15,661 bases of DNA, taken from positions 1-15,661 of the IMG/VR virus record IMGVR_UViG_2724679238_000003. One strand, written 5' to 3'. The position numbers were made by a program, and so were the translations under genes. Source of the stretch: a virus. Lineage: Duplodnaviria > Heunggongvirae > Uroviricota > Caudoviricetes. The notes under the pieces were generated by a model. It saw only the letters and a program-made list of their open reading frames with translations. It was not told the origin of the DNA and made no database searches. This document shows, piece by piece, positions 3,360-14,565 of this stretch. The first letter of the stretch is position 1. Each line of letters opens with the position of its first letter.

Positions 3360-5213
3360 TTATGATGCCGGTGCATTTATCTCCAGCATCAGACTTTCTA
3401 TCTCAACGCCATACGCTGCATTTTTTGTAACATCCGTCAGCGTCAGCGCATTCAGTCCCAGAGTCAGACTGTCTTTTATAACCTGGAATGCCGGGCCAGC
3501 CACTCCATTCAGTTTCGGAGTAACCGTGGCACTGCCGGCGGTGAACACCAGCTCCAGCGTCTGCCAGTCGTTACTGTAGCCCCCAAATTCCCCCAGCTTC
3601 GTGTTTCCTGCTTTCCTGTGATGCATCAGATTCAGTCTACCGTCAGTGGTCTGAGTGAAGTACGACATCAGGAACGGATTACCGGTACCCGTCATCGCCA
3701 CACCATCAGGAACGGGAGCGTCCGTATACAGATAAATCCCCAGCCCGAACTGATTATTAGTCAGAGCTCCAGACAGGCGGAACTTACAAGTCAGCCTGCC
3801 GCCCTGTGTCAGCAGGGTAATTGCGTCATCCACCGGATGCGCCAGGGACCAGGTTTTATTGCTCTGCTTGGTGATCTTAAATACACCATCTGCCAGCTGA
3901 ATTCCGCCATCTTTAATAGTCCAGCCCTGCGTAGCAGCCTCTCCGTCTGCCGGCAGCAGGGAGACTGTGCGGACGGATGTTTCGCTATCAGACGGCCCCG
4001 ATGGCGTATCGCCGCCGGGCGAGGGGTTGATTTCCGGTGCCTTACCACTGATGAAGGCTGAGGTGCGCCCGGCTGCGTTCAGAATAGCGGTTGCCAGGCG
4101 ATCCGAAATAATGCTCCTGCGCGCCCATGAACTAAAATGTGTCGGGCGGTTTGATGATACCCAGTTTCCATTCGTTCTCGATGCCGCACCGTAATATCCT
4201 GATGCCGGAATATCTGGATCTTCTGCCGGCGCATTAGTGGCGGTATTGACGCCGTTACCGTCTGTCATGAACGGCACAAAATAAACGCCCTCACTCTCCC
4301 TGTTTTTGTACGCCCCGTAAATGGTGTTGTACTGCGTGCCGTAGGTGTTTTTCCAGTAATACGTCGTGTCACCACAAATCCACGGCACATTTACAGCACT
4401 GCCACCATGACACTGCGCGTTAAACACAGTGAGGTCAGCACGAAACTGCTTCAGCATGGCTGTAAACAGAGCAGGTTGCTGTGCGTAGGTGGCGGCGCTC
4501 ATGTCAAACTCTCCCTGCATCCAGCACACCGCCAGCAACACATTTTTCTGGTTCTTCTGTAATGCAGCTTTGGTGCGCACAATCAGGTCCTGATATAACG
4601 GTTTACCCACACCCCAGCGCGCCGAATCCTGGCTGGCCCCCGTGTCCGCACTGAATGTCCCCTCCGCGCCCAGGGTAAATGCCGAACCACCACGACAGCA
4701 TGGTACCAGCAGGATCCCCGCATTATTCGGGATATACGGGAGCAGTTTTTTGGCAATATGAAGTCCCTGCCCCACACAGCCATACTGACCTTTGCTTAGG
4801 TCAGCCCTCGGATGATTCAGCGTACTCATATCCTGCACATCATGCAGACAGTGGTCAGCCGGGATGATGTCGTTATACGTACAACTCTCTCCACCCGGAG
4901 TTACCGTGCTGCGGCGCGCCAGCTGTTTAATGCGCGGATCCGGAGCATCGTAAGAATCCGGCAACGGAAGCCCTTCACCGTAGGCCATGCCGTTGGACTG
5001 TCCGGCAAGCACAACCACGTAGAACCAGTCCGGCTCAGATGAAGGGCCGACCTGTGGATCTCCTTCAATAGCCACCGCCTGCATCAGTGTGTACGGCGTA
5101 ATGGCAACCGGTCCGCCGTATGGCTGCCAGCCCTCTTTCAGCTTTTGTGTCAGTTTTTCCGCCAGATCTGACGGCGAGGAAGCCCTGACCAAATCATAAC
5201 GTTTAATCGACAT
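3360..5213 (-). CDS. nanS: NanS-p-like prophage sialate O-acetylesterase with N-terminal DUF1737-like region
   Basis: 617 aa from ATG 5213 (MSIKRYDLVRASSPSDLAEKLTQKLKEGWQPYGGP...); resembles the large esterase ORFs I recall downstream of stx in Stx prophages; sits between Q and the holin. Track ORF begins at upstream GTG 5231. Confidence 0.7.
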   Translation of the reverse strand: MSIKRYDLVRASSPSDLAEKLTQKLKEGWQPYGGPVAITPYTLMQAVAIEGDPQVGPSSEPDWFYVVVLAGQSNGMAYGEGLPLPDSYDAPDPRIKQLARRSTVTPGGESCTYNDIIPADHCLHDVQDMSTLNHPRADLSKGQYGCVGQGLHIAKKLLPYIPNNAGILLVPCCRGGSAFTLGAEGTFSADTGASQDSARWGVGKPLYQDLIVRTKAALQKNQKNVLLAVCWMQGEFDMSAATYAQQPALFTAMLKQFRADLTVFNAQCHGGSAVNVPWICGDTTYYWKNTYGTQYNTIYGAYKNRESEGVYFVPFMTDGNGVNTATNAPAEDPDIPASGYYGAASRTNGNWVSSNRPTHFSSWARRSIISDRLATAILNAAGRTSAFISGKAPEINPSPGGDTPSGPSDSETSVRTVSLLPADGEAATQGWTIKDGGIQLADGVFKITKQSNKTWSLAHPVDDAITLLTQGGRLTCKFRLSGALTNNQFGLGIYLYTDAPVPDGVAMTGTGNPFLMSYFTQTTDGRLNLMHHRKAGNTKLGEFGGYSNDWQTLELVFTAGSATVTPKLNGVAGPAFQVIKDSLTLGLNALTLTDVTKNAAYGVEIESLMLEINAPAS

Positions 5214-5547
5214 CAAATTTCTCTCATGCACAGGAATAAAGTAGGGAAAGGCCGGAGCAGGAACAGAAGAAAATCACAGGATGAACATCTGCCAATAGCA
5301 GGCCGTAAAAAAAGGCCGCGCCATGCGCAGCCAAAACTCACAAGGAAAATGATAACTGGAATAACAATTGTGATATACGCATGGTACCGGGAGCTTCCCG
5401 GTGAGTTCAGCCTGGTGCAACCGAACCCGCGTCAGCCGCCAATCGACAATTAATCGAAGTATTCGACATTCACCAGTCGCCCCCCCATACAGGGGAATTC
5501 ACCATGCAGAAATGTTTTTAATAAACAGCAAACAAAAAAATCAAGCA

Positions 5548-11224: not shown

Positions 11225-12120
11225 AGATCCACCCCGTAAATCCAGTCTGTGTTTGTCAGGTCGAGTTTTGGTTTACTGGCTGTCACGACTGCCTGTTGCT
11301 TGTTACGGTTGATTTCGAGCTGGGTCCACTTGTCGCGGAGTTTGGCCGGGCTAAGCACGTTACCGGACCAGAAGTTGTCCTGGCATGCCCAGCGGAACAG
11401 CACGCACATGTCGCGGTGGTTACGTCCGTCACGTTCACGCATCAGGCGGATATCGTTAGCCCACCCTGCAAAATTCGGTTTTCTGGCTGATGGCGCGATG
11501 GTCTTCACCATGTCAAACATCCACTCTGCGGCGGTCAGGTCTTCTGCTGTCCCCCACTTGCTGCCGCTCTGAATTGCAGCATCCGGTTTAACCACAGAAA
11601 GATCGTTTTCTGGCTGGTCAGAGGATTCGCCAGAATTCTCGGACGAATAATCTTTTCTTTTTTCTTTTGTAATAGTGTCTTTTGTGTCCCCCTGTTTTGA
11701 GGGATAGAAATCCCCCAATTTGAGGGATGTTTTATCCCTCGTTTTAGGGGATTTTCCCTCGTTTTGAGGGATGCACCATTCTGAGATGTTTTTATTTGGT
11801 CCAAACATGCCGCATTGCTGCTTGATAATATTCATTCTGACGAGTTCTAACTTGGCTTCATTGCACCGTTTGACGGGTAACTTTGTAATCTCGCTAAGTT
11901 GAGAATCGGTGATTCTGTCCATTGGTTTATTCCACCCATAGGTTTTACGCAGAATGGCAAGCAGCACTTTAAACTGTCGCTTGGTCAGATCTGCGCCTGA
12001 ATAAGCCTCAAGCAGCATATTTGATAGTCTGGCGTAACCATCATCGAGATCTGCCACATTACGCTCCTGTTTGGCAAAGTTACCTCTGCAGAAGTTGAGT
12101 ATTTTTGCTGTATTTGTCAT
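11221..12120 (-). CDS. O: replication initiator O
   Basis: 299 aa from ATG 12120 (MTNTAKILNFCRGNFAKQERNVADLDDGYARLSNMLLEAY...), matching lambda O; AGGAG RBS; contains the iteron array in its central part. Track ORF starts further upstream. Confidence 0.93.
   Translation of the reverse strand: MTNTAKILNFCRGNFAKQERNVADLDDGYARLSNMLLEAYSGADLTKRQFKVLLAILRKTYGWNKPMDRITDSQLSEITKLPVKRCNEAKLELVRMNIIKQQCGMFGPNKNISEWCIPQNEGKSPKTRDKTSLKLGDFYPSKQGDTKDTITKEKRKDYSSENSGESSDQPENDLSVVKPDAAIQSGSKWGTAEDLTAAEWMFDMVKTIAPSARKPNFAGWANDIRLMRERDGRNHRDMCVLFRWACQDNFWSGNVLSPAKLRDKWTQLEINRNKQQAVVTASKPKLDLTNTDWIYGVDL
11645..11775. repeat. origin of replication (ori-lambda type): four ~19-bp palindromic iterons plus adjacent A/T-rich region, inside the O gene
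   Basis: Four spaced repeats of the form TCCC(T/C)C-N5-7-GAGGGA at about 11687, 11710, 11734 and 11755, flanked at 11645-11686 by an A/T-rich tract (tcttttcttttttcttttgtaatagtgtcttttgtg). Confidence 0.85.
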
Positions 12121-12154: not shown

Positions 12155-12433
12155 TCAGGCCTCAAAACTGTTGCAGCAGTCTTGAGGCTTTTCTTTTGTC
12201 AGCACCATGGCTACTTTCTTTGCCAGCTCCGCTAATTCCTCGTCTTCAACACCCCACTCCAGCACAGCCAGAAGCATGGCCATCTTTGGGATAAAGCTGT
12301 CTTTCCATCGCGAAATTTGCGATTCATTAATCCCTAATGCATCAGCAACCTTTCGCTGACCACGTACAGCAATTCGATTTAGGATGTTGCTTGTAATTGC
12401 ATTCGCTTTCTTGCGAGTACTTGTAAGTTGCAT
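12155..12433 (-). CDS. cII: CII-type transcriptional activator (P22 c1-like)
   Basis: 92 aa from ATG 12433 (MQLTSTRKKANAITSNILNRIAVRGQRKVADALGINESQISRWK...), HTH region and C-terminus similar to lambda CII/P22 C1; AGGA RBS. Track ORF extended upstream. Confidence 0.85.
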   Translation of the reverse strand: MQLTSTRKKANAITSNILNRIAVRGQRKVADALGINESQISRWKDSFIPKMAMLLAVLEWGVEDEELAELAKKVAMVLTKEKPQDCCNSFEA

Positions 12434-12490
12434 ATGTAAGTATTTCCTTAACAAATAAGAAGTTATACGCACCAACTGATGCGCGTTGTA

Positions 12491-12534
12491 TTCCCGCATT
12501 TCGGCGGGAATGAGGACCATGACTGTTAAAGAGC
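12491..12534 (-). promoter_or_regulatory. nutR (boxA + boxB) N-utilisation site
   Basis: Minus strand reads GCTCTTTAAC (boxA-like) - 14 nt - TTCCCGCCGAAATGCGGGAA (boxB stem-loop); the same boxA and identical stem-loop recur upstream of N on the plus strand. Confidence 0.65.
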
Positions 12535-12727: not shown

Positions 12728-12807
12728 AGACTCGCTCCAAAATTAAAGAACACTTAAATTATCTGTCAAAGGAATCTTAAGTCAAGTTTATTTAAGATAT
12801 CTTAACT
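12728..12807. promoter_or_regulatory. OR operator/promoter region (pR toward cro, pRM toward repressor)
   Basis: Three 18-bp sites fitting the P22-type pattern nnTnAAG-N4-CTTnAnn (about 12742-12759, 12775-12792, 12790-12807); minus-strand TTGACA -17 nt- TTAATT upstream of cro; repressor ATG 12808 has no SD (leaderless-like). Confidence 0.7.
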
Positions 12808-13458
12808 ATGAATACACAACTGATGGGTGAGCGTATTCGCGCTCGCAGAAAAGAACTCAAGATTAGGCAGGCTGCCCTTGGCAAGATGGTTGGCGTGTCT
12901 AATGTTGCTATTTCCCAATGGGAGCGTTCTGAAACTGAGCCCAATGGCGAAAACCTATTGGCCTTAGCCAAGGCTTTGCAGTGTTCCCCTGATTACTTGT
13001 TGAAAGGAGAAGATAGTCTTTCAAACATTGCCTATCACAGCAGGCATGATCCAAGAGGTTCGTATCCTCTAATTAGTTGGGTAAGCGCAGGATGTTGGAT
13101 GGAAGCTGTAGAGCCATATCATAAGCGTGCAATAGATAACTGGTACGATACAACCGTAGATTGTTCAGAAGATTCGTTTTGGCTGGACGTAAAAGGTGAT
13201 TCGATGACGGCTCCAGCCGGTCTTAGCATCCCTGAAGGGATGATAATACTCGTCGATCCTGAAGTAGAACCTCGTAATGGGAAGCTGGTAGTGGCAAAGC
13301 TCGAAGGAGAAAACGAGGCAACTTTCAAGAAGTTAGTTATTGATGCTGGCAGGAGGTTTCTAAAACCACTTAACCCACAATATCCGATGATTGAGATCAA
13401 CGGGAACTGCAAAATCATCGGTGTAGTTGTCGATGCAAAAATAGCAAACCTTCCATAA
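12808..13458 (+). CDS. cI: prophage repressor, P22 C2 type (HTH plus LexA-like S24 autopeptidase domain)
   Basis: 216 aa, recognisably P22 C2 (MNTQLMGERIRARRKELKIRQAALGKMVGVSNVAISQWERSETEPNGENLLALAKALQCSPDYLL...); Ser in GDSM and Lys in VVAKLEG consistent with the S24 catalytic dyad. Confidence 0.93.
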   Translation: MNTQLMGERIRARRKELKIRQAALGKMVGVSNVAISQWERSETEPNGENLLALAKALQCSPDYLLKGEDSLSNIAYHSRHDPRGSYPLISWVSAGCWMEAVEPYHKRAIDNWYDTTVDCSEDSFWLDVKGDSMTAPAGLSIPEGMIILVDPEVEPRNGKLVVAKLEGENEATFKKLVIDAGRRFLKPLNPQYPMIEINGNCKIIGVVVDAKIANLP

Positions 13459-13480
13459 GGGGCATTCGCCCCTTTTTTCT
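13458..13480 (+). terminator. intrinsic terminator immediately after the repressor gene
   Basis: AGGGGC-ATTC-GCCCCT stem-loop followed by TTTTTTCTTTCC, starting at the repressor stop codon. Confidence 0.65.
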
Positions 13481-13520
13481 TTCCTTTAAAAATCAAAGCA
13501 AAACTTAAGTCCTGCAATAA

Positions 13521-13580
13521 AATTTAAGTTTTCTTCAAAAACACTCTTGACCACAAATTAAAGAAATCTTAAATTTAAGT
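13521..13580 (+). promoter_or_regulatory. OL operators and pL promoter
   Basis: Two 18-bp P22-type operator-like sites (13521-13538 atttaagttttcttcaaa; 13556-13573 attaaagaaatcttaaat); TTGACC (13546-13551) -17 nt- TAAATT (13569-13574) reading toward N. Confidence 0.6.
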
Positions 13581-13621
13581 CATCAGCAGGACGCTGGTAG
13601 CCAAACGGAACAGATTGGCAG

Positions 13622-13663
13622 GCTCTTTAACATTGATGGGATTGTCCCGCCGAAATGCGGGAA
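13622..13663 (+). promoter_or_regulatory. nutL (boxA + boxB)
   Basis: GCTCTTTAAC boxA-like at 13622-13631, then 13 nt, then TCCCGCCGAAATGCGGGA stem-loop (13645-13662), identical to the element between cro and cII. Confidence 0.65.
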
Positions 13664-13715
13664 CCAAAGAGTAGTTGGCTTTGGGGTGATGTGAAGTGCA
13701 GCCGCGCGACAGCAT

Positions 13716-13770
13716 CAGGGAATTAACCTCCCCCCCCCCCCCACAGGGAATTAACCCCCCCCCCCCCCCC
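13716..13770 (+). repeat. tandem direct repeat, each copy CAGGGAATTAACC followed by a long poly-C tract (13 C and 16 C), in the N leader
   Basis: Directly visible: cagggaattaacct + C13 (13730-13742), then cagggaattaa + C16 (13755-13770); about 40 bp upstream of the N start codon. Confidence 0.9.
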
Positions 13771-13807
13771 GTCACGTCACCGCTAAAGTCAATCATCGGA
13801 GGTCAAC

Positions 13808-14107
13808 ATGACAGTAGTCATTACATATCTGGCTGACGATAACGCCAGAAATCGCCGCAGAGCACGCAGACAGGCTCAACGTGAACAGGCAATGCAAGAG
13901 CAGCGACTGGCGCGAAAGATTGCGCTAAAGCTCTCTGGTTGCGTCAGAGCAGATAAAGCAGCATCACTCGGAAGCCTTCGCTGCCAGAAGGCAGAAGAAG
14001 TCGAGCGTAAACAGAACCGTATTTACTACCGCAAGCCACGCAGTGAAATGGGTGTGACTTGTGTTGGTCGCCAGAAAATGAAATTAGGCAGCAAACCACT
14101 TATTTGA
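13808..14107 (+). CDS. N: N-type transcription antiterminator (phi21-like)
   Basis: 99 aa with arginine-rich N-terminus (NARNRRRARRQAQREQAMQEQRLARK) and C-terminal half matching phi21 N as recalled (...RKIALKLSGCVRADKAASLGSLRC..KAEEVERKQNRIYY.KPRSEMGVTCVGRQK.KLGSKPLI); GGAGG RBS; downstream of pL and nutL. Confidence 0.85.
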   Translation: MTVVITYLADDNARNRRRARRQAQREQAMQEQRLARKIALKLSGCVRADKAASLGSLRCQKAEEVERKQNRIYYRKPRSEMGVTCVGRQKMKLGSKPLI

Positions 14108-14115
14108 GGTGATAT

Positions 14116-14565
14116 ATGGAAGAACAGGCAAATAAGATTCTCATAGAACTATTGCAAAAAGCCAGTAATGGAATAGACGCGGCTGTCTCATTTAGCCAGG
14201 CACAGATTCCTGATGTTGTTCATCAATTGCTGCTATGGAATATGGTTGATAGCCTGATTAAAACATTAATAGCCATTCTAACAATCCCACTGGTTTTCTG
14301 GTTTATGAAGAAACAGTACCAAAAAGTTGAAATTGGTATATTCGATAATGAAGGATGGTTATGGGAGAAGGGAAAGCCTAAATACAAACCGACTATGATT
14401 TGGGAAAGTAACGGTGAGATTAGTTTTCTAATCTTACCATTAGCAGCAGTTTTTGTTCTGTGGGTAAGTTTTATTATTGCTGTAGTAACCAATATGACAT
14501 GGTTAAAAATTTGGCTGGCCCCAAAGCTTTACCTTATCGAATATGCAGCATCATTGGTTAAGTAA
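14116..14565 (+). CDS. hypothetical small membrane protein (149 aa, about 2 TM helices) in the sieB-equivalent position after N
   Basis: ATG 14116 with GAGGTGA RBS, 8 nt after N stop; hydrophobic segments LIKTLIAILTIPLVFWFM and ISFLILPLAAVFVLWVSFIIAVVT; AT-rich; followed by an intrinsic terminator; not recognised. Confidence 0.6.
   Translation: MEEQANKILIELLQKASNGIDAAVSFSQAQIPDVVHQLLLWNMVDSLIKTLIAILTIPLVFWFMKKQYQKVEIGIFDNEGWLWEKGKPKYKPTMIWESNGEISFLILPLAAVFVLWVSFIIAVVTNMTWLKIWLAPKLYLIEYAASLVK

What the first reader, a model, noticed from the sequence alone, without database searches (positions are those of the whole stretch)
13716..13770. Tandem repeat with C13 and C16 homopolymer tracts in the N leader
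Seen: two direct copies of CAGGGAATTAACC, each followed by an uninterrupted run of C (13 and 16 nt), sit between nutL and the N ribosome-binding site. Tracts this long are rare in enterobacterial DNA and prone to slipped-strand length variation; on the pL transcript they would form an unstructured C-rich leader (G-rich on the other strand). Inference: they could modulate N translation or processing, act as a contingency locus, or be a sequencing or assembly artefact.
Basis: seen in the sequence. Interest (0 to 1): 0.5.

Follow-up and report, generated by a model that had tools for sequence, protein, structure and literature searches.

The report
Expanded poly-C repeat in prophage N leader
Two unusually long runs of C and a 28-base tandem duplication sit in the dispensable top loop of a conserved RNA hairpin upstream of a lambda-like prophage's N gene; close relatives with the same flanks carry only one copy and short C runs, so this is most likely a private slippage product (exact lengths uncertain) and not a regulatory device.

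Summary
Window 13716-13770 reads CAGGGAATTAACC-T-C13-A-CAGGGAATTAACC-C14, and the second C run is 16 long if the unit's own CC is counted. It lies at about +135 to +189 of the pL transcript, between nutL (boxA 13622, boxB 13645-13662) and the N Shine-Dalgarno (13798).

The repeat is not in a free leader. It fills the 3' side of the apical loop of a predicted 21-bp hairpin (13674-13694 / 13772-13793). This hairpin shares its stem motif with lambda's N-leader hairpin, and it is kept, with compensatory changes, across leader types whose apices are unrelated.

Twenty resolved alleles of the same leader type have one unit and C runs of 5-9 that differ by single bases. One has (GTCAC)17 next to the tract. 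A sister assembly (3,275 of 3,276 flanking bases identical) has a 24-N gap exactly here.

Best reading: a replication-slippage hot spot in a structure-tolerant loop that expanded privately in this lineage, neutral or mildly harmful. A role as a Rho-loading site or expression tuner is not excluded and is untested. A pure assembly artefact is less likely, though the tract lengths remain unverified. The interest is modest.

The parts
13547..13575 (+). pL promoter (-35 TTGACC, 17-nt spacer, -10 TAAATT). The transcription start is about 13582.
   Evidence: Consensus scan. The window aligns to the phage 21 record, where OL1-3 and the pL start are annotated.
13622..13662 (+). nutL: boxA GCTCTTTAA (13622-13630) and the boxB hairpin UCCCGC-CGAAAU-GCGGGA (13645-13662).
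   Evidence: Identical to the annotated nutL of HK620 and homologous to boxA-L/nutL of phage 21. The hairpin appears in every fold.
13674..13694 (+). 5' strand of the long N-leader hairpin (GUUGGCUUUGG GGUGAUGUGA).
   Evidence: Minimum-free-energy and centroid folds. Mean pair probability is 0.95. RNAalifold gives a consensus with compensatory pairs. The same GGCUUUGGGGUG motif forms the stem in lambda's N leader.
13696..13707 (+). Small inner hairpin GUGC-AGCC-GCGC in the apical region.
   Evidence: Folds. RNAalifold pairs 31-34/39-42 include one compensatory change.
13716..13743 (+). Repeat copy 1: CAGGGAATTAACC, T, C13, A. GGGA/UCCC forms a weak local hairpin.
   Evidence: fold.
13744..13770 (+). 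Repeat copy 2: CAGGGAATTAACC followed by 14 C (C16 run at 13755-13770). It abuts the 3' strand of the stem.
   Evidence: No relative has a second copy.
13772..13793 (+). 3' strand of the long hairpin (UCACGUCACC, bulged G, CUAAAGUCAAU). It contains the (GTCAC)2 repeat that is expanded to 17 copies in locus L009.
13798..13802 (+). Shine-Dalgarno GGAGG of N.
   Evidence: Sequence. The equivalent site is annotated as the ribosome-binding site in phage 21.
13808..14107 (+). N antitermination gene (99 aa). The C-terminal two thirds resemble phage 21 N, while the arginine-rich N-terminus differs.
   Evidence: phrog_271, E = 1.5e-36. It is 70% identical to phage 21 N, with the differences concentrated in residues 1-33. 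The exact protein is present in 57 blocks of public assemblies.

Best explanation
The feature is a lineage-private expansion of a simple-sequence hot spot. The hot spot lies in the apical loop of the conserved hairpin of a lambdoid N leader.

Shown here:
- pL, nutL, a predicted 21-bp stem, the N ribosome-binding site and N are arranged as in lambda, phage 21 and HK620.
- The stem is conserved across leader types, but everything inside it is replaceable.
- The repeat occupies the 3' side of that replaceable apex, next to the stem.
- Relatives carry a single CAGGGA(A/G)TTAACC unit followed by T and a short C run of 5-9, often interrupted by T or A.
- Those relatives differ from one another by single-base steps.

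Inferred origin: in the GGGAATT sub-lineage the interrupting bases were lost, giving the C9 seen in L043 and L062. This made the run prone to replication slippage. The run then expanded, and the unit plus its run was duplicated in tandem by slipped mispairing at the C runs.

Inferred effect: by analogy with lambda, RNase III would cut the stem, so the apex would be removed from the mature N mRNA. The stem is still predicted to form with probability 0.95. The expansion is therefore tolerated and has little or no regulatory role. At most, the unpaired C-rich loop may slightly lower early N expression.

The exact tract lengths in the assembly should be treated as approximate.
For: 1. Anatomy. The repeat lies between stem strands 13674-13694 and 13772-13793 in the minimum-free-energy and centroid folds. 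The same stem forms in relatives. Mean stem pair probability is 0.95 in the window against 0.975 in the single-copy alleles L010, L004 and L035, and the predicted accessibility of the Shine-Dalgarno is unchanged.

2. Conservation of form.
- RNAalifold on 8 leaders (type A, type B, phage 21) keeps the stem, and 7 predicted pairs have changes on both sides.
- Within type B, GUGA/UCAC is replaced by GUAA/UUAC.
- Type C leaders (Gally, IME10, 611R6) keep the stem base and replace the upper stem by the complementary GAUUGGAUG/CAUCCAAUC, with an unrelated ~125-nt apex.
- Lambda's own N leader folds with the same GGCUUUGGGGUG...CACC.CCAAAGC stem and yet another apex.

3. Hot spot. Twenty resolved type-B alleles show CCTC7, CCTC8, CCTC9, CCTCCCTC5-7, CCTCCCAC6 and CCTCCTTC6. 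L009 has (GTCAC)17 instead of (GTCAC)2 immediately 3' of the tract.

4. Private allele.
- No second unit copy was found in IMG/VR.
- The 271 complete E. coli genomes that cover the query have loci of 173-180 nt, against 211 nt in the window.
- L010 has an identical leader apart from the tract. L043 is 99.8% identical in the flanks and carries C9.

5. Probably real.
- Sister assembly GCA_009684735.2 matches the window at 1840/1840 nt downstream and 1435/1436 nt upstream, and has 24 N exactly between CAGG and CCCGTCACG.
- The tracts are internal and collinear with relatives on both sides. By contrast, 92 of 120 C16/G16 tracts in IMG/VR lie within 150 nt of a locus end.
- The surrounding genes are intact.

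6. Non-coding.
- Allele lengths differ by steps that are not multiples of 3.
- The two ORFs across the tract are not on record anywhere.

7. Literature. The lambda leader between nutL and N is highly structured and is tied to RNase III and to N-mediated translational repression (PMC5725501, citing Wilson 1997 and 2002; PMC5371410, citing Steege 1987).
Against: - No reads were available, so tract lengths, and even the duplication, could be consensus errors.
- RNase III cleavage of this particular hairpin is inferred from the stem motif it shares with lambda, not shown.
- Deriving the window allele from any observed relative needs several steps: a duplication, two expansions, and loss of a T and an A in copy 2. 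That is a lot of change for a lineage that is otherwise 99.8-100% identical to its relatives. It hints either at very high local mutability, at selection, or at error.
- The loop carries the strongest C>G bias of the whole window, so an effect on Rho loading cannot be dismissed.
- The equilibrium folds ignore co-transcriptional folding of a loop enlarged from 45 to 76 nt.
Confidence: 0.6

Rival explanations
1. Sequencing or assembly artefact. The true allele would be a single unit with a shorter or differently sized C run. The duplication and the 13/16 lengths would come from homopolymer miscalls or from a mis-resolved repeat in the assembly graph.
For: - The allele is unique. It was absent from IMG/VR, from the metagenome and species-representative genome scans, and from 5,426 complete E. 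coli genomes.
- The nearest relatives, at 99.8-100% flank identity, have C9 or an unresolved gap.
- Long C/G homopolymers in public contigs are often artefacts: 92 of 120 in IMG/VR lie at locus ends.
- The sister assembly's gap is 24 N, whereas the window has 48 nt there.
Against: - The tracts are internal, and both flanks are collinear with relatives.
- A de Bruijn or long-read consensus does not readily invent the junction CCCCA-CAGGGAATTAACC without reads that contain it. This is an inference.
- An independent sister assembly failed at exactly this spot, which a simple C9 allele would not cause.
- Coding genes across the window show no frameshifts.
- Neighbouring alleles prove that the site really does vary.
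Confidence: 0.2
2. Functional tuner of N expression. The roughly 50 nt of unpaired, C-rich, untranslated RNA just upstream of N would act as a Rho-loading (rut-like) site. Alternatively it would slow closure of the RNase III stem. Either way, fewer unmodified pL transcripts would complete N. Slippage in the tracts would make this heritable setting adjustable, giving a contingency-like control of prophage induction threshold.
For: - The 55-nt repeat has 33 C and 6 G.
- The 78-nt window starting at 13721 has the highest (C-G)/length of the whole 15.6 kb, at 0.42.
- The tracts are predicted to be unpaired and lie in untranslated RNA upstream of the RBS.
- Rut sites are described as C>G regions of low structure, optimally 60-90 nt, though about 30 nt can suffice (PMC12360218).
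- Tract lengths of 13-16 are well above those that vary among relatives.
- The first N molecules must be made from transcripts not yet protected by N. This rests on established knowledge of the lambda pL operon.
Against: - There is no conservation. Relatives with identical flanks lack the tracts, and types A and C and lambda have unrelated apices.
- The loop is closed by a 21-bp stem and would be excised if RNase III cuts there as in lambda.
- No frame or promoter spacing depends on tract length, so a sharp on/off switch is not expected.
- The N ribosome-binding site lies only 28 nt downstream, so translation would soon shield the RNA.
- Nothing was measured.
Confidence: 0.13
3. DNA-level element. 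The G13 and G16 on the template (-) strand would form a G-quadruplex or rigid poly(dG)-poly(dC) DNA that impedes transcription or replication through the pL leader.
For: The only canonical G4 motif in the window, on either strand, is the G16 on the - strand at 13755-13770.
Against: - This is pure motif matching with no conservation.
- A single homopolymer G4 with G loops is weak evidence.
- No experimental handle is available here.
Confidence: 0.04

Closest known systems
Lambda N-leader hairpin (RNase III processing site between nutL and the N ribosome-binding site; Steege 1987, Kameyama 1991, Wilson 1997/2002, as cited in PMC5725501 and PMC5371410)
   Same: - The order is the same: pL, boxA, boxB, long hairpin, Shine-Dalgarno, N.
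- The leader is of similar length: 226 nt here, against about 220 nt in lambda.
- The stem uses the same motif, GGCUUUGGGGUG...CACC.CCAAAGY.
- The stem is about two helical turns long, which is the size of an RNase III substrate.
   Different: - The apex is unrelated in sequence, as it also is between leader types A, B and C.
- Only this allele carries long homopolymers and a tandem duplication.
- RNase III cleavage of the phage 21/HK620-type hairpin was not tested here, and I know of no direct test.
Phase-variable homopolymeric tracts or contingency loci (for example poly-C/G tracts in Bordetella, Neisseria and Campylobacter; PMC1891110, PMC5084427)
   Same: - The C runs are long and uninterrupted, above the length at which slippage becomes frequent.
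- Single-base length variation is seen among related alleles.
   Different: - The tract is not in a reading frame or in a promoter spacer. It lies in an RNA loop at +135 to +189 of a 5' UTR.
- The host is an enterobacterial prophage, where such loci are unusual.
- No on/off phenotype is known.
Rho utilisation (rut) sites and poly(C) as a Rho ligand (review PMC12360218)
   Same: The RNA is C-rich, G-poor, predicted to be unpaired and untranslated.
   Different: - The unpaired part is shorter than the optimal 60-90 nt.
- It is enclosed by a stable stem.
- It is not conserved, and no termination data exist.
Mosaic 'boundary sequences' of HK620/CUS-3-type phages (CUS-3 record feature bsq5)
   Same: The pL-to-N leader is annotated as a boundary sequence in CUS-3. 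The conserved stem base flanks interchangeable apices (types A, B, C) and, in CUS-3, an extra ~200-nt insert.
   Different: The change in the window is a local slippage or duplication event, not the exchange of a module.

Membership tests
Lambdoid N-leader long hairpin (lambda RNase III site type) | Lies between nutL and the N ribosome-binding site on the pL transcript | tested here: met
   boxB at 13645-13662, stem at 13674-13694 / 13772-13793, SD at 13798, ATG at 13808.
Lambdoid N-leader long hairpin (lambda RNase III site type) | Long, nearly perfect duplex of about 20 bp | tested here: met
   21 pairs with one bulged G. Mean pair probability is 0.95 in the window and 0.975 in relatives.
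Lambdoid N-leader long hairpin (lambda RNase III site type) | Structure conserved across phages, with compensatory changes | tested here: met
   RNAalifold finds 7 pairs changed on both sides. GUGA/UCAC is replaced by GUAA/UUAC within type B. The type C upper stem is replaced by a complementary pair of strands. Lambda has the same stem motif.
Lambdoid N-leader long hairpin (lambda RNase III site type) | Cleaved by RNase III in vivo or in vitro | not testable with these tools
   Inferred from the stem motif shared with lambda. The primary papers (PMC126142, PMC275398) were not held.
Contingency locus (phase-variable simple-sequence repeat) | Uninterrupted repeat tract long enough for frequent slippage | tested here: met
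   C13 and C16.
Contingency locus (phase-variable simple-sequence repeat) | Tract placed in a reading frame or a promoter spacer, so that length switches expression | tested here: not met
   The tract lies 135-189 nt downstream of the pL start and 38 nt upstream of the N ATG. Alleles differ by steps that are not multiples of 3. The ORFs over the tract are not on record.
Contingency locus (phase-variable simple-sequence repeat) | Length polymorphism among close relatives or within a population | tested here: inconclusive
   Between lineages the run varies from 5 to 9 C, and a sister assembly has a gap. Within-population heterogeneity needs reads.
Contingency locus (phase-variable simple-sequence repeat) | Reversible phenotype linked to tract length | not testable with these tools
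   Requires experiments.
Rho utilisation (rut) site | C>G-biased RNA of low secondary structure in an untranslated region | tested here: met
   33 C against 6 G in 55 nt, the top C>G window of the 15.6 kb. Predicted to be unpaired. Upstream of the N RBS.
Rho utilisation (rut) site | 60-90 nt of accessible RNA and Rho-dependent termination downstream | not testable with these tools
   Only about 50 nt are unpaired, inside a stem-closed loop. Termination needs a bicyclomycin or Rho assay.
Poly-G/C assembly artefact | Tract at a contig end or joining unrelated sequence | tested here: not met
   The tract is internal, and its flanks are collinear with and 99.8-100% identical to relatives. The typical IMG/VR cases are terminal.
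Poly-G/C assembly artefact | Not reproduced by independent data from the same lineage | tested here: inconclusive
   The only sister assembly has 24 N at the site. No reads were available.

The most novel reading that the evidence does not exclude
The expanded poly-C loop would be a heritable, slippage-adjustable Rho-loading attenuator placed just upstream of N. It would set how many unmodified pL transcripts complete N. In effect it would be a contingency-style dial on the induction threshold of a lambdoid prophage, a control layer not described for lambda-like phages.
Probability: 0.07. Interest if true: 0.6.

Novelty: new member of a known kind. Interest (0 to 1): 0.27.

Why it matters
If the tracts are real, they mark the apex of the lambdoid N-leader hairpin as a natural hot spot for slippage and module exchange. 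The evidence is C runs of 5 to 16, (GTCAC)2 to (GTCAC)17, and three unrelated apices on one conserved stem. This would be a natural mutagenesis series showing that only the stem, and not its content, is under constraint.

Two practical points follow:
- The site breaks short-read assemblies.
- It attracts spurious proline- or glycine-rich ORF calls.

The finding would add to phage regulation only if the C-rich loop proved to affect Rho loading or RNase III processing. Otherwise it is an ordinary, private repeat expansion.

Tried and rejected
- Rfam scan of 13400-14150 with permissive thresholds: only sub-threshold chance hits, none to a phage leader family.
- Pattern scans of the metagenome and species-representative genome collections with CAGCATCAGGGARTTAACC: 16 of 18 hits were chance matches in unrelated organisms. 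Only L025 and L032 were homologous.
- Scan of IMG/VR for the duplication junction: no hit.
- Coding readings were rejected. The + strand 46-aa (poly-Pro) and - strand 73-aa (poly-Gly) ORFs are not on record anywhere. The - ORF's only PHROG hit covers 19 residues outside the tract. Allele lengths do not keep a frame.
- Anti-Shine-Dalgarno idea: ACCUCC in copy 1 is complementary to the N GGAGGU. I dropped it because type A, type C and lambda leaders lack it, and the predicted SD accessibility is the same in all alleles.
- IHF-site idea for CATCAGGGAATTA, judged by eye: two mismatches to the consensus and absent from the other leader types, so I did not pursue it.
- Attempts to find the source record failed. 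Exact look-ups of the 623-aa ORF returned nothing, the cI protein is in 8,843 blocks, and a text search for BEZY01 found nothing.
- The primary lambda papers PMC126142 and PMC275398 are not held.
- One literature query was rejected for syntax. A search for homopolymeric tracts in E. coli prophages found nothing relevant.

Full report
**Observation**

Window 13716-13770 reads CAGGGAATTAACC T C13 A CAGGGAATTAACC C14.
- Tandem Repeats Finder calls a 28-nt period with 2.0 copies, 96% matches and score 103.
- The repeat finder gives 13716-13742 and 13744-13770 at 96% identity.
A T (13729) separates the first unit from its C13. The 'C16' (13755-13770) includes the last two bases of the second unit.
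- No other homopolymer in the window exceeds 8 nt.
- From base composition, the expected number of C runs is 2e-4 for 13 or more and 3e-6 for 16 or more.

**Context**

The window is the early region of a lambdoid prophage.
- On the - strand lie cro, cII, O, P, nin genes, a DNA methyltransferase, NinG, NinI, Q, a 623-aa protein of unknown function, and the holin, endolysin and Rz genes.
- On the + strand lie cI, N, two small genes and kil. All of these look intact.
- The pL -35/-10 is at 13547-13575.
- Alignment to the annotated phage 21 record puts the transcription start near 13582.
- boxA is at 13622-13630 and the boxB hairpin at 13645-13662, identical to HK620 nutL.
- The Shine-Dalgarno GGAGG is at 13798-13802 and the N ATG at 13808.
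- N is 70% identical to phage 21 N. The differences are concentrated in the arginine-rich N-terminus, which fits the different boxB.

**The tract lies inside a conserved hairpin**

Folding the leader gives a 21-bp stem with one bulged G. The strands are GUUGGCUUUGGGGUGAUGUGA (13674-13694) and UCACGUCACC-G-CUAAAGUCAAU (13772-13793). The stem encloses an apical region that contains the repeat.

The same stem forms in single-copy relatives and in the commoner 'type A' leader of HK620, N7 and most E. coli prophages.

Evidence that the stem is conserved:
- RNAalifold on eight leaders, including phage 21, keeps the stem, and 7 predicted pairs are changed on both sides.
- Within the window's own 'type B' leader, GUGA/UCAC is replaced by GUAA/UUAC in L005, L007, L016 and L032.
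- A third 'type C' leader (phages Gally, IME10, 611R6) keeps the stem base. Its upper stem is the complementary GAUUGGAUG/CAUCCAAUC, around an unrelated ~125-nt apex.
- Lambda's own N leader folds with the same motif, GGCUUUGGGGUG...CACC.CCAAAGC, around yet another apex.

This is the structured region between nutL and N. The literature links that region to RNase III processing and to N/Nus-mediated translational repression (PMC5725501, citing Wilson 1997 and 2002; PMC5371410, citing Steege 1987). Cleavage of this particular hairpin is inferred, not shown.

The stem is constrained and its contents are not. The repeat sits in the unconstrained part, directly against the 3' strand of the stem.

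**Related alleles**

I collected 20 resolved type B alleles from complete E. coli genomes, IMG/VR, one metagenome contig, an Escherichia sp. genome, an NCBI draft and a Logan assembly.
- All have one CAGGGA(A/G)TTAACC unit followed by T and a short C run. The forms are C7, C8, C9, CCCTC5-7, CCCAC6 and CCTTC6.
- Leader lengths from boxA to the start of N are 158, 159, 160, 161 and 162 nt. That single-base ladder is the signature of slippage and is incompatible with coding.
- In L009 the adjacent GTCAC repeat, which forms part of the 3' stem strand, is present in 17 copies instead of 2. This is a second kind of slippage at the same spot.

No relative carries the window's allele:
- No IMG/VR contig has the duplication junction.
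- Of the 271 complete E. coli genomes that cover the 211-nt query, the longest locus is 180 nt.
- L010 has a leader identical to the window's from boxA to ATG, except that CCCACCCCCC replaces the 41-nt tract region.
- L043 and L062 are 99.8% identical in the flanks, belong to the same GGGAATT sub-lineage, and have C9.

**Real or artefact?**

No reads were available, but several points bear on the question.
- The nearest relative is contig BEZY01000009.1 of GCA_009684735.2. It matches the window at 1840/1840 nt downstream and 1435/1436 nt upstream; the one difference is at 12739.
- That contig has a run of 24 N exactly between CAGG and CCCGTCACG. An ordinary C9 allele would not break an assembly, so the lineage probably does carry something hard to sequence at this site.
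- The window's tracts are internal and flanked on both sides by collinear sequence. The usual poly-G/C artefact is terminal: 92 of 120 C16/G16 tracts in IMG/VR lie within 150 nt of a locus end.
- Against this, the allele is unique. Deriving it from any observed relative needs several steps. The sister gap estimate of 24 nt is shorter than the 48 nt the window has there.

I put about 0.75-0.8 on long tracts being real. I put less on the exact lengths 13 and 16.

**Origin and effect**

The path I infer has three steps:
1. Loss of the interrupting T or A gave a pure run, the C9 seen in L043 and L062.
2. Replication slippage then lengthened the run.
3. Slipped mispairing at the C runs duplicated the unit together with its run. 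The A at 13743 matches the interrupting A of the L010/L011 alleles.

ViennaRNA predicts that the stem still forms, with mean pair probability 0.95 against 0.975 in relatives. It also predicts that the N Shine-Dalgarno is equally accessible in all alleles. If RNase III cuts the stem as in lambda, the apex is removed from the N mRNA. These points explain why the expansion is tolerated and suggest that it does little.

The main functional rival is Rho loading.
- The 55-nt repeat has 33 C and 6 G.
- It lies in the most C>G-biased 78-nt window of the whole 15.6 kb.
- It is predicted to be unpaired and is untranslated. These are the compositional hallmarks of rut sites (PMC12360218).
- Because the first N molecules come from transcripts not yet protected by N, such a site could lower early N expression.
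- This reading is untested and not conserved, and the loop is closed by a stable stem.

A template-strand G-quadruplex is a remote possibility. The G16 is the only G4 motif in the window.

**Comparison with known systems**

- The hairpin is a member of the lambda-type N-leader hairpin family on position, size, covariation and shared stem sequence. Only the enzymatic feature is untested.
- The repeat itself is best filed as a simple-sequence length polymorphism.
- It fails the defining layout of a contingency locus, because no frame or promoter spacer depends on its length.
- It meets only the compositional criteria of a rut site.

**Verdict**

The feature is an unusual but mechanistically ordinary private repeat expansion at a genuine slippage hot spot, in the replaceable apex of a conserved N-leader hairpin.

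Interest is modest, at 0.27. Most of it lies in two things: the hot spot as a natural demonstration of what the leader tolerates, and the small chance that the C-rich loop tunes N expression through Rho.

Noticed in passing
L009 (IMGVR_UViG_2740892426_000004), - strand, about 70-155 nt 3' of the pattern match at 137-155: The pentanucleotide GTCAC forms the 3' strand of the N-leader stem and is present twice in all other alleles. Here it is repeated 17 times in tandem, immediately after the C tract. This is a second, independent slippage expansion at the same hot spot.
   Followed up: partly
L052 / L055 (GCA_009684735.2, BEZY01000009.1), L052 1437-1460: A run of 24 N replaces the repeat exactly (CAGG-N24-CCCGTCACG). 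The prophage is otherwise 3,275/3,276 nt identical to the window over the compared flanks. The single difference is at window 12739, between cro and cI.
   Followed up: yes
L001 (CUS-3) about 560-810; also L044-L051: In CUS-3-type prophages a ~200-nt insert lies between the leader hairpin and the N ribosome-binding site. It contains its own GGAGG-ATG and a terminator-like hairpin. Gene callers place a 129-138-aa ORF on the opposite strand. L049 and L050 carry a further ~250-nt insert between boxA and the hairpin.
   Followed up: no
L002 (phage vB_EcoP-611R6) 381-521; L039, L040: The type C leader apex carries a 46-aa ORF annotated as 'repetitive proline-rich cell wall protein 2'. It lies wholly inside the N-leader hairpin and is probably a spurious call.
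   Followed up: no
window 11735-11772: Two tandem copies of a 20-nt unit, TCCCTCGTTTTAAGGGATTT (TRF score 62), lie inside the O-like replication gene. They are probably origin iterons, as in lambda ori.
   Followed up: no
window 12155-12520 (- strand): The 121-aa ORF matches CII-like families only from residue 30 onward. Relatives have a 92-aa CII, so the true start is probably an internal ATG.
   Followed up: no
window 13808-14107 versus L003 614-913: N is a mosaic. Residues 34-99 are nearly identical to phage 21 N, while the arginine-rich N-terminus differs. This matches the HK620-type boxB rather than the phage 21 boxB, although the pL/operator region resembles phage 21.
   Followed up: partly
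window 3360-5231 (- strand): A 623-aa ORF downstream of Q belongs to phrog_143 (bit score 1137.6, function unknown). Its GTG start is probably not the true start, because the exact product is not on record.
   Followed up: no
That is typical of poly-G read-tail artefacts.
   Followed up: partly
L193 (lambda NC_001416) 38-439: The RefSeq lambda record annotates N as a 133-aa ORF starting at 35438. That start lies inside the leader hairpin, upstream of the accepted N start at 35360 (the accepted start is from memory).
   Followed up: no
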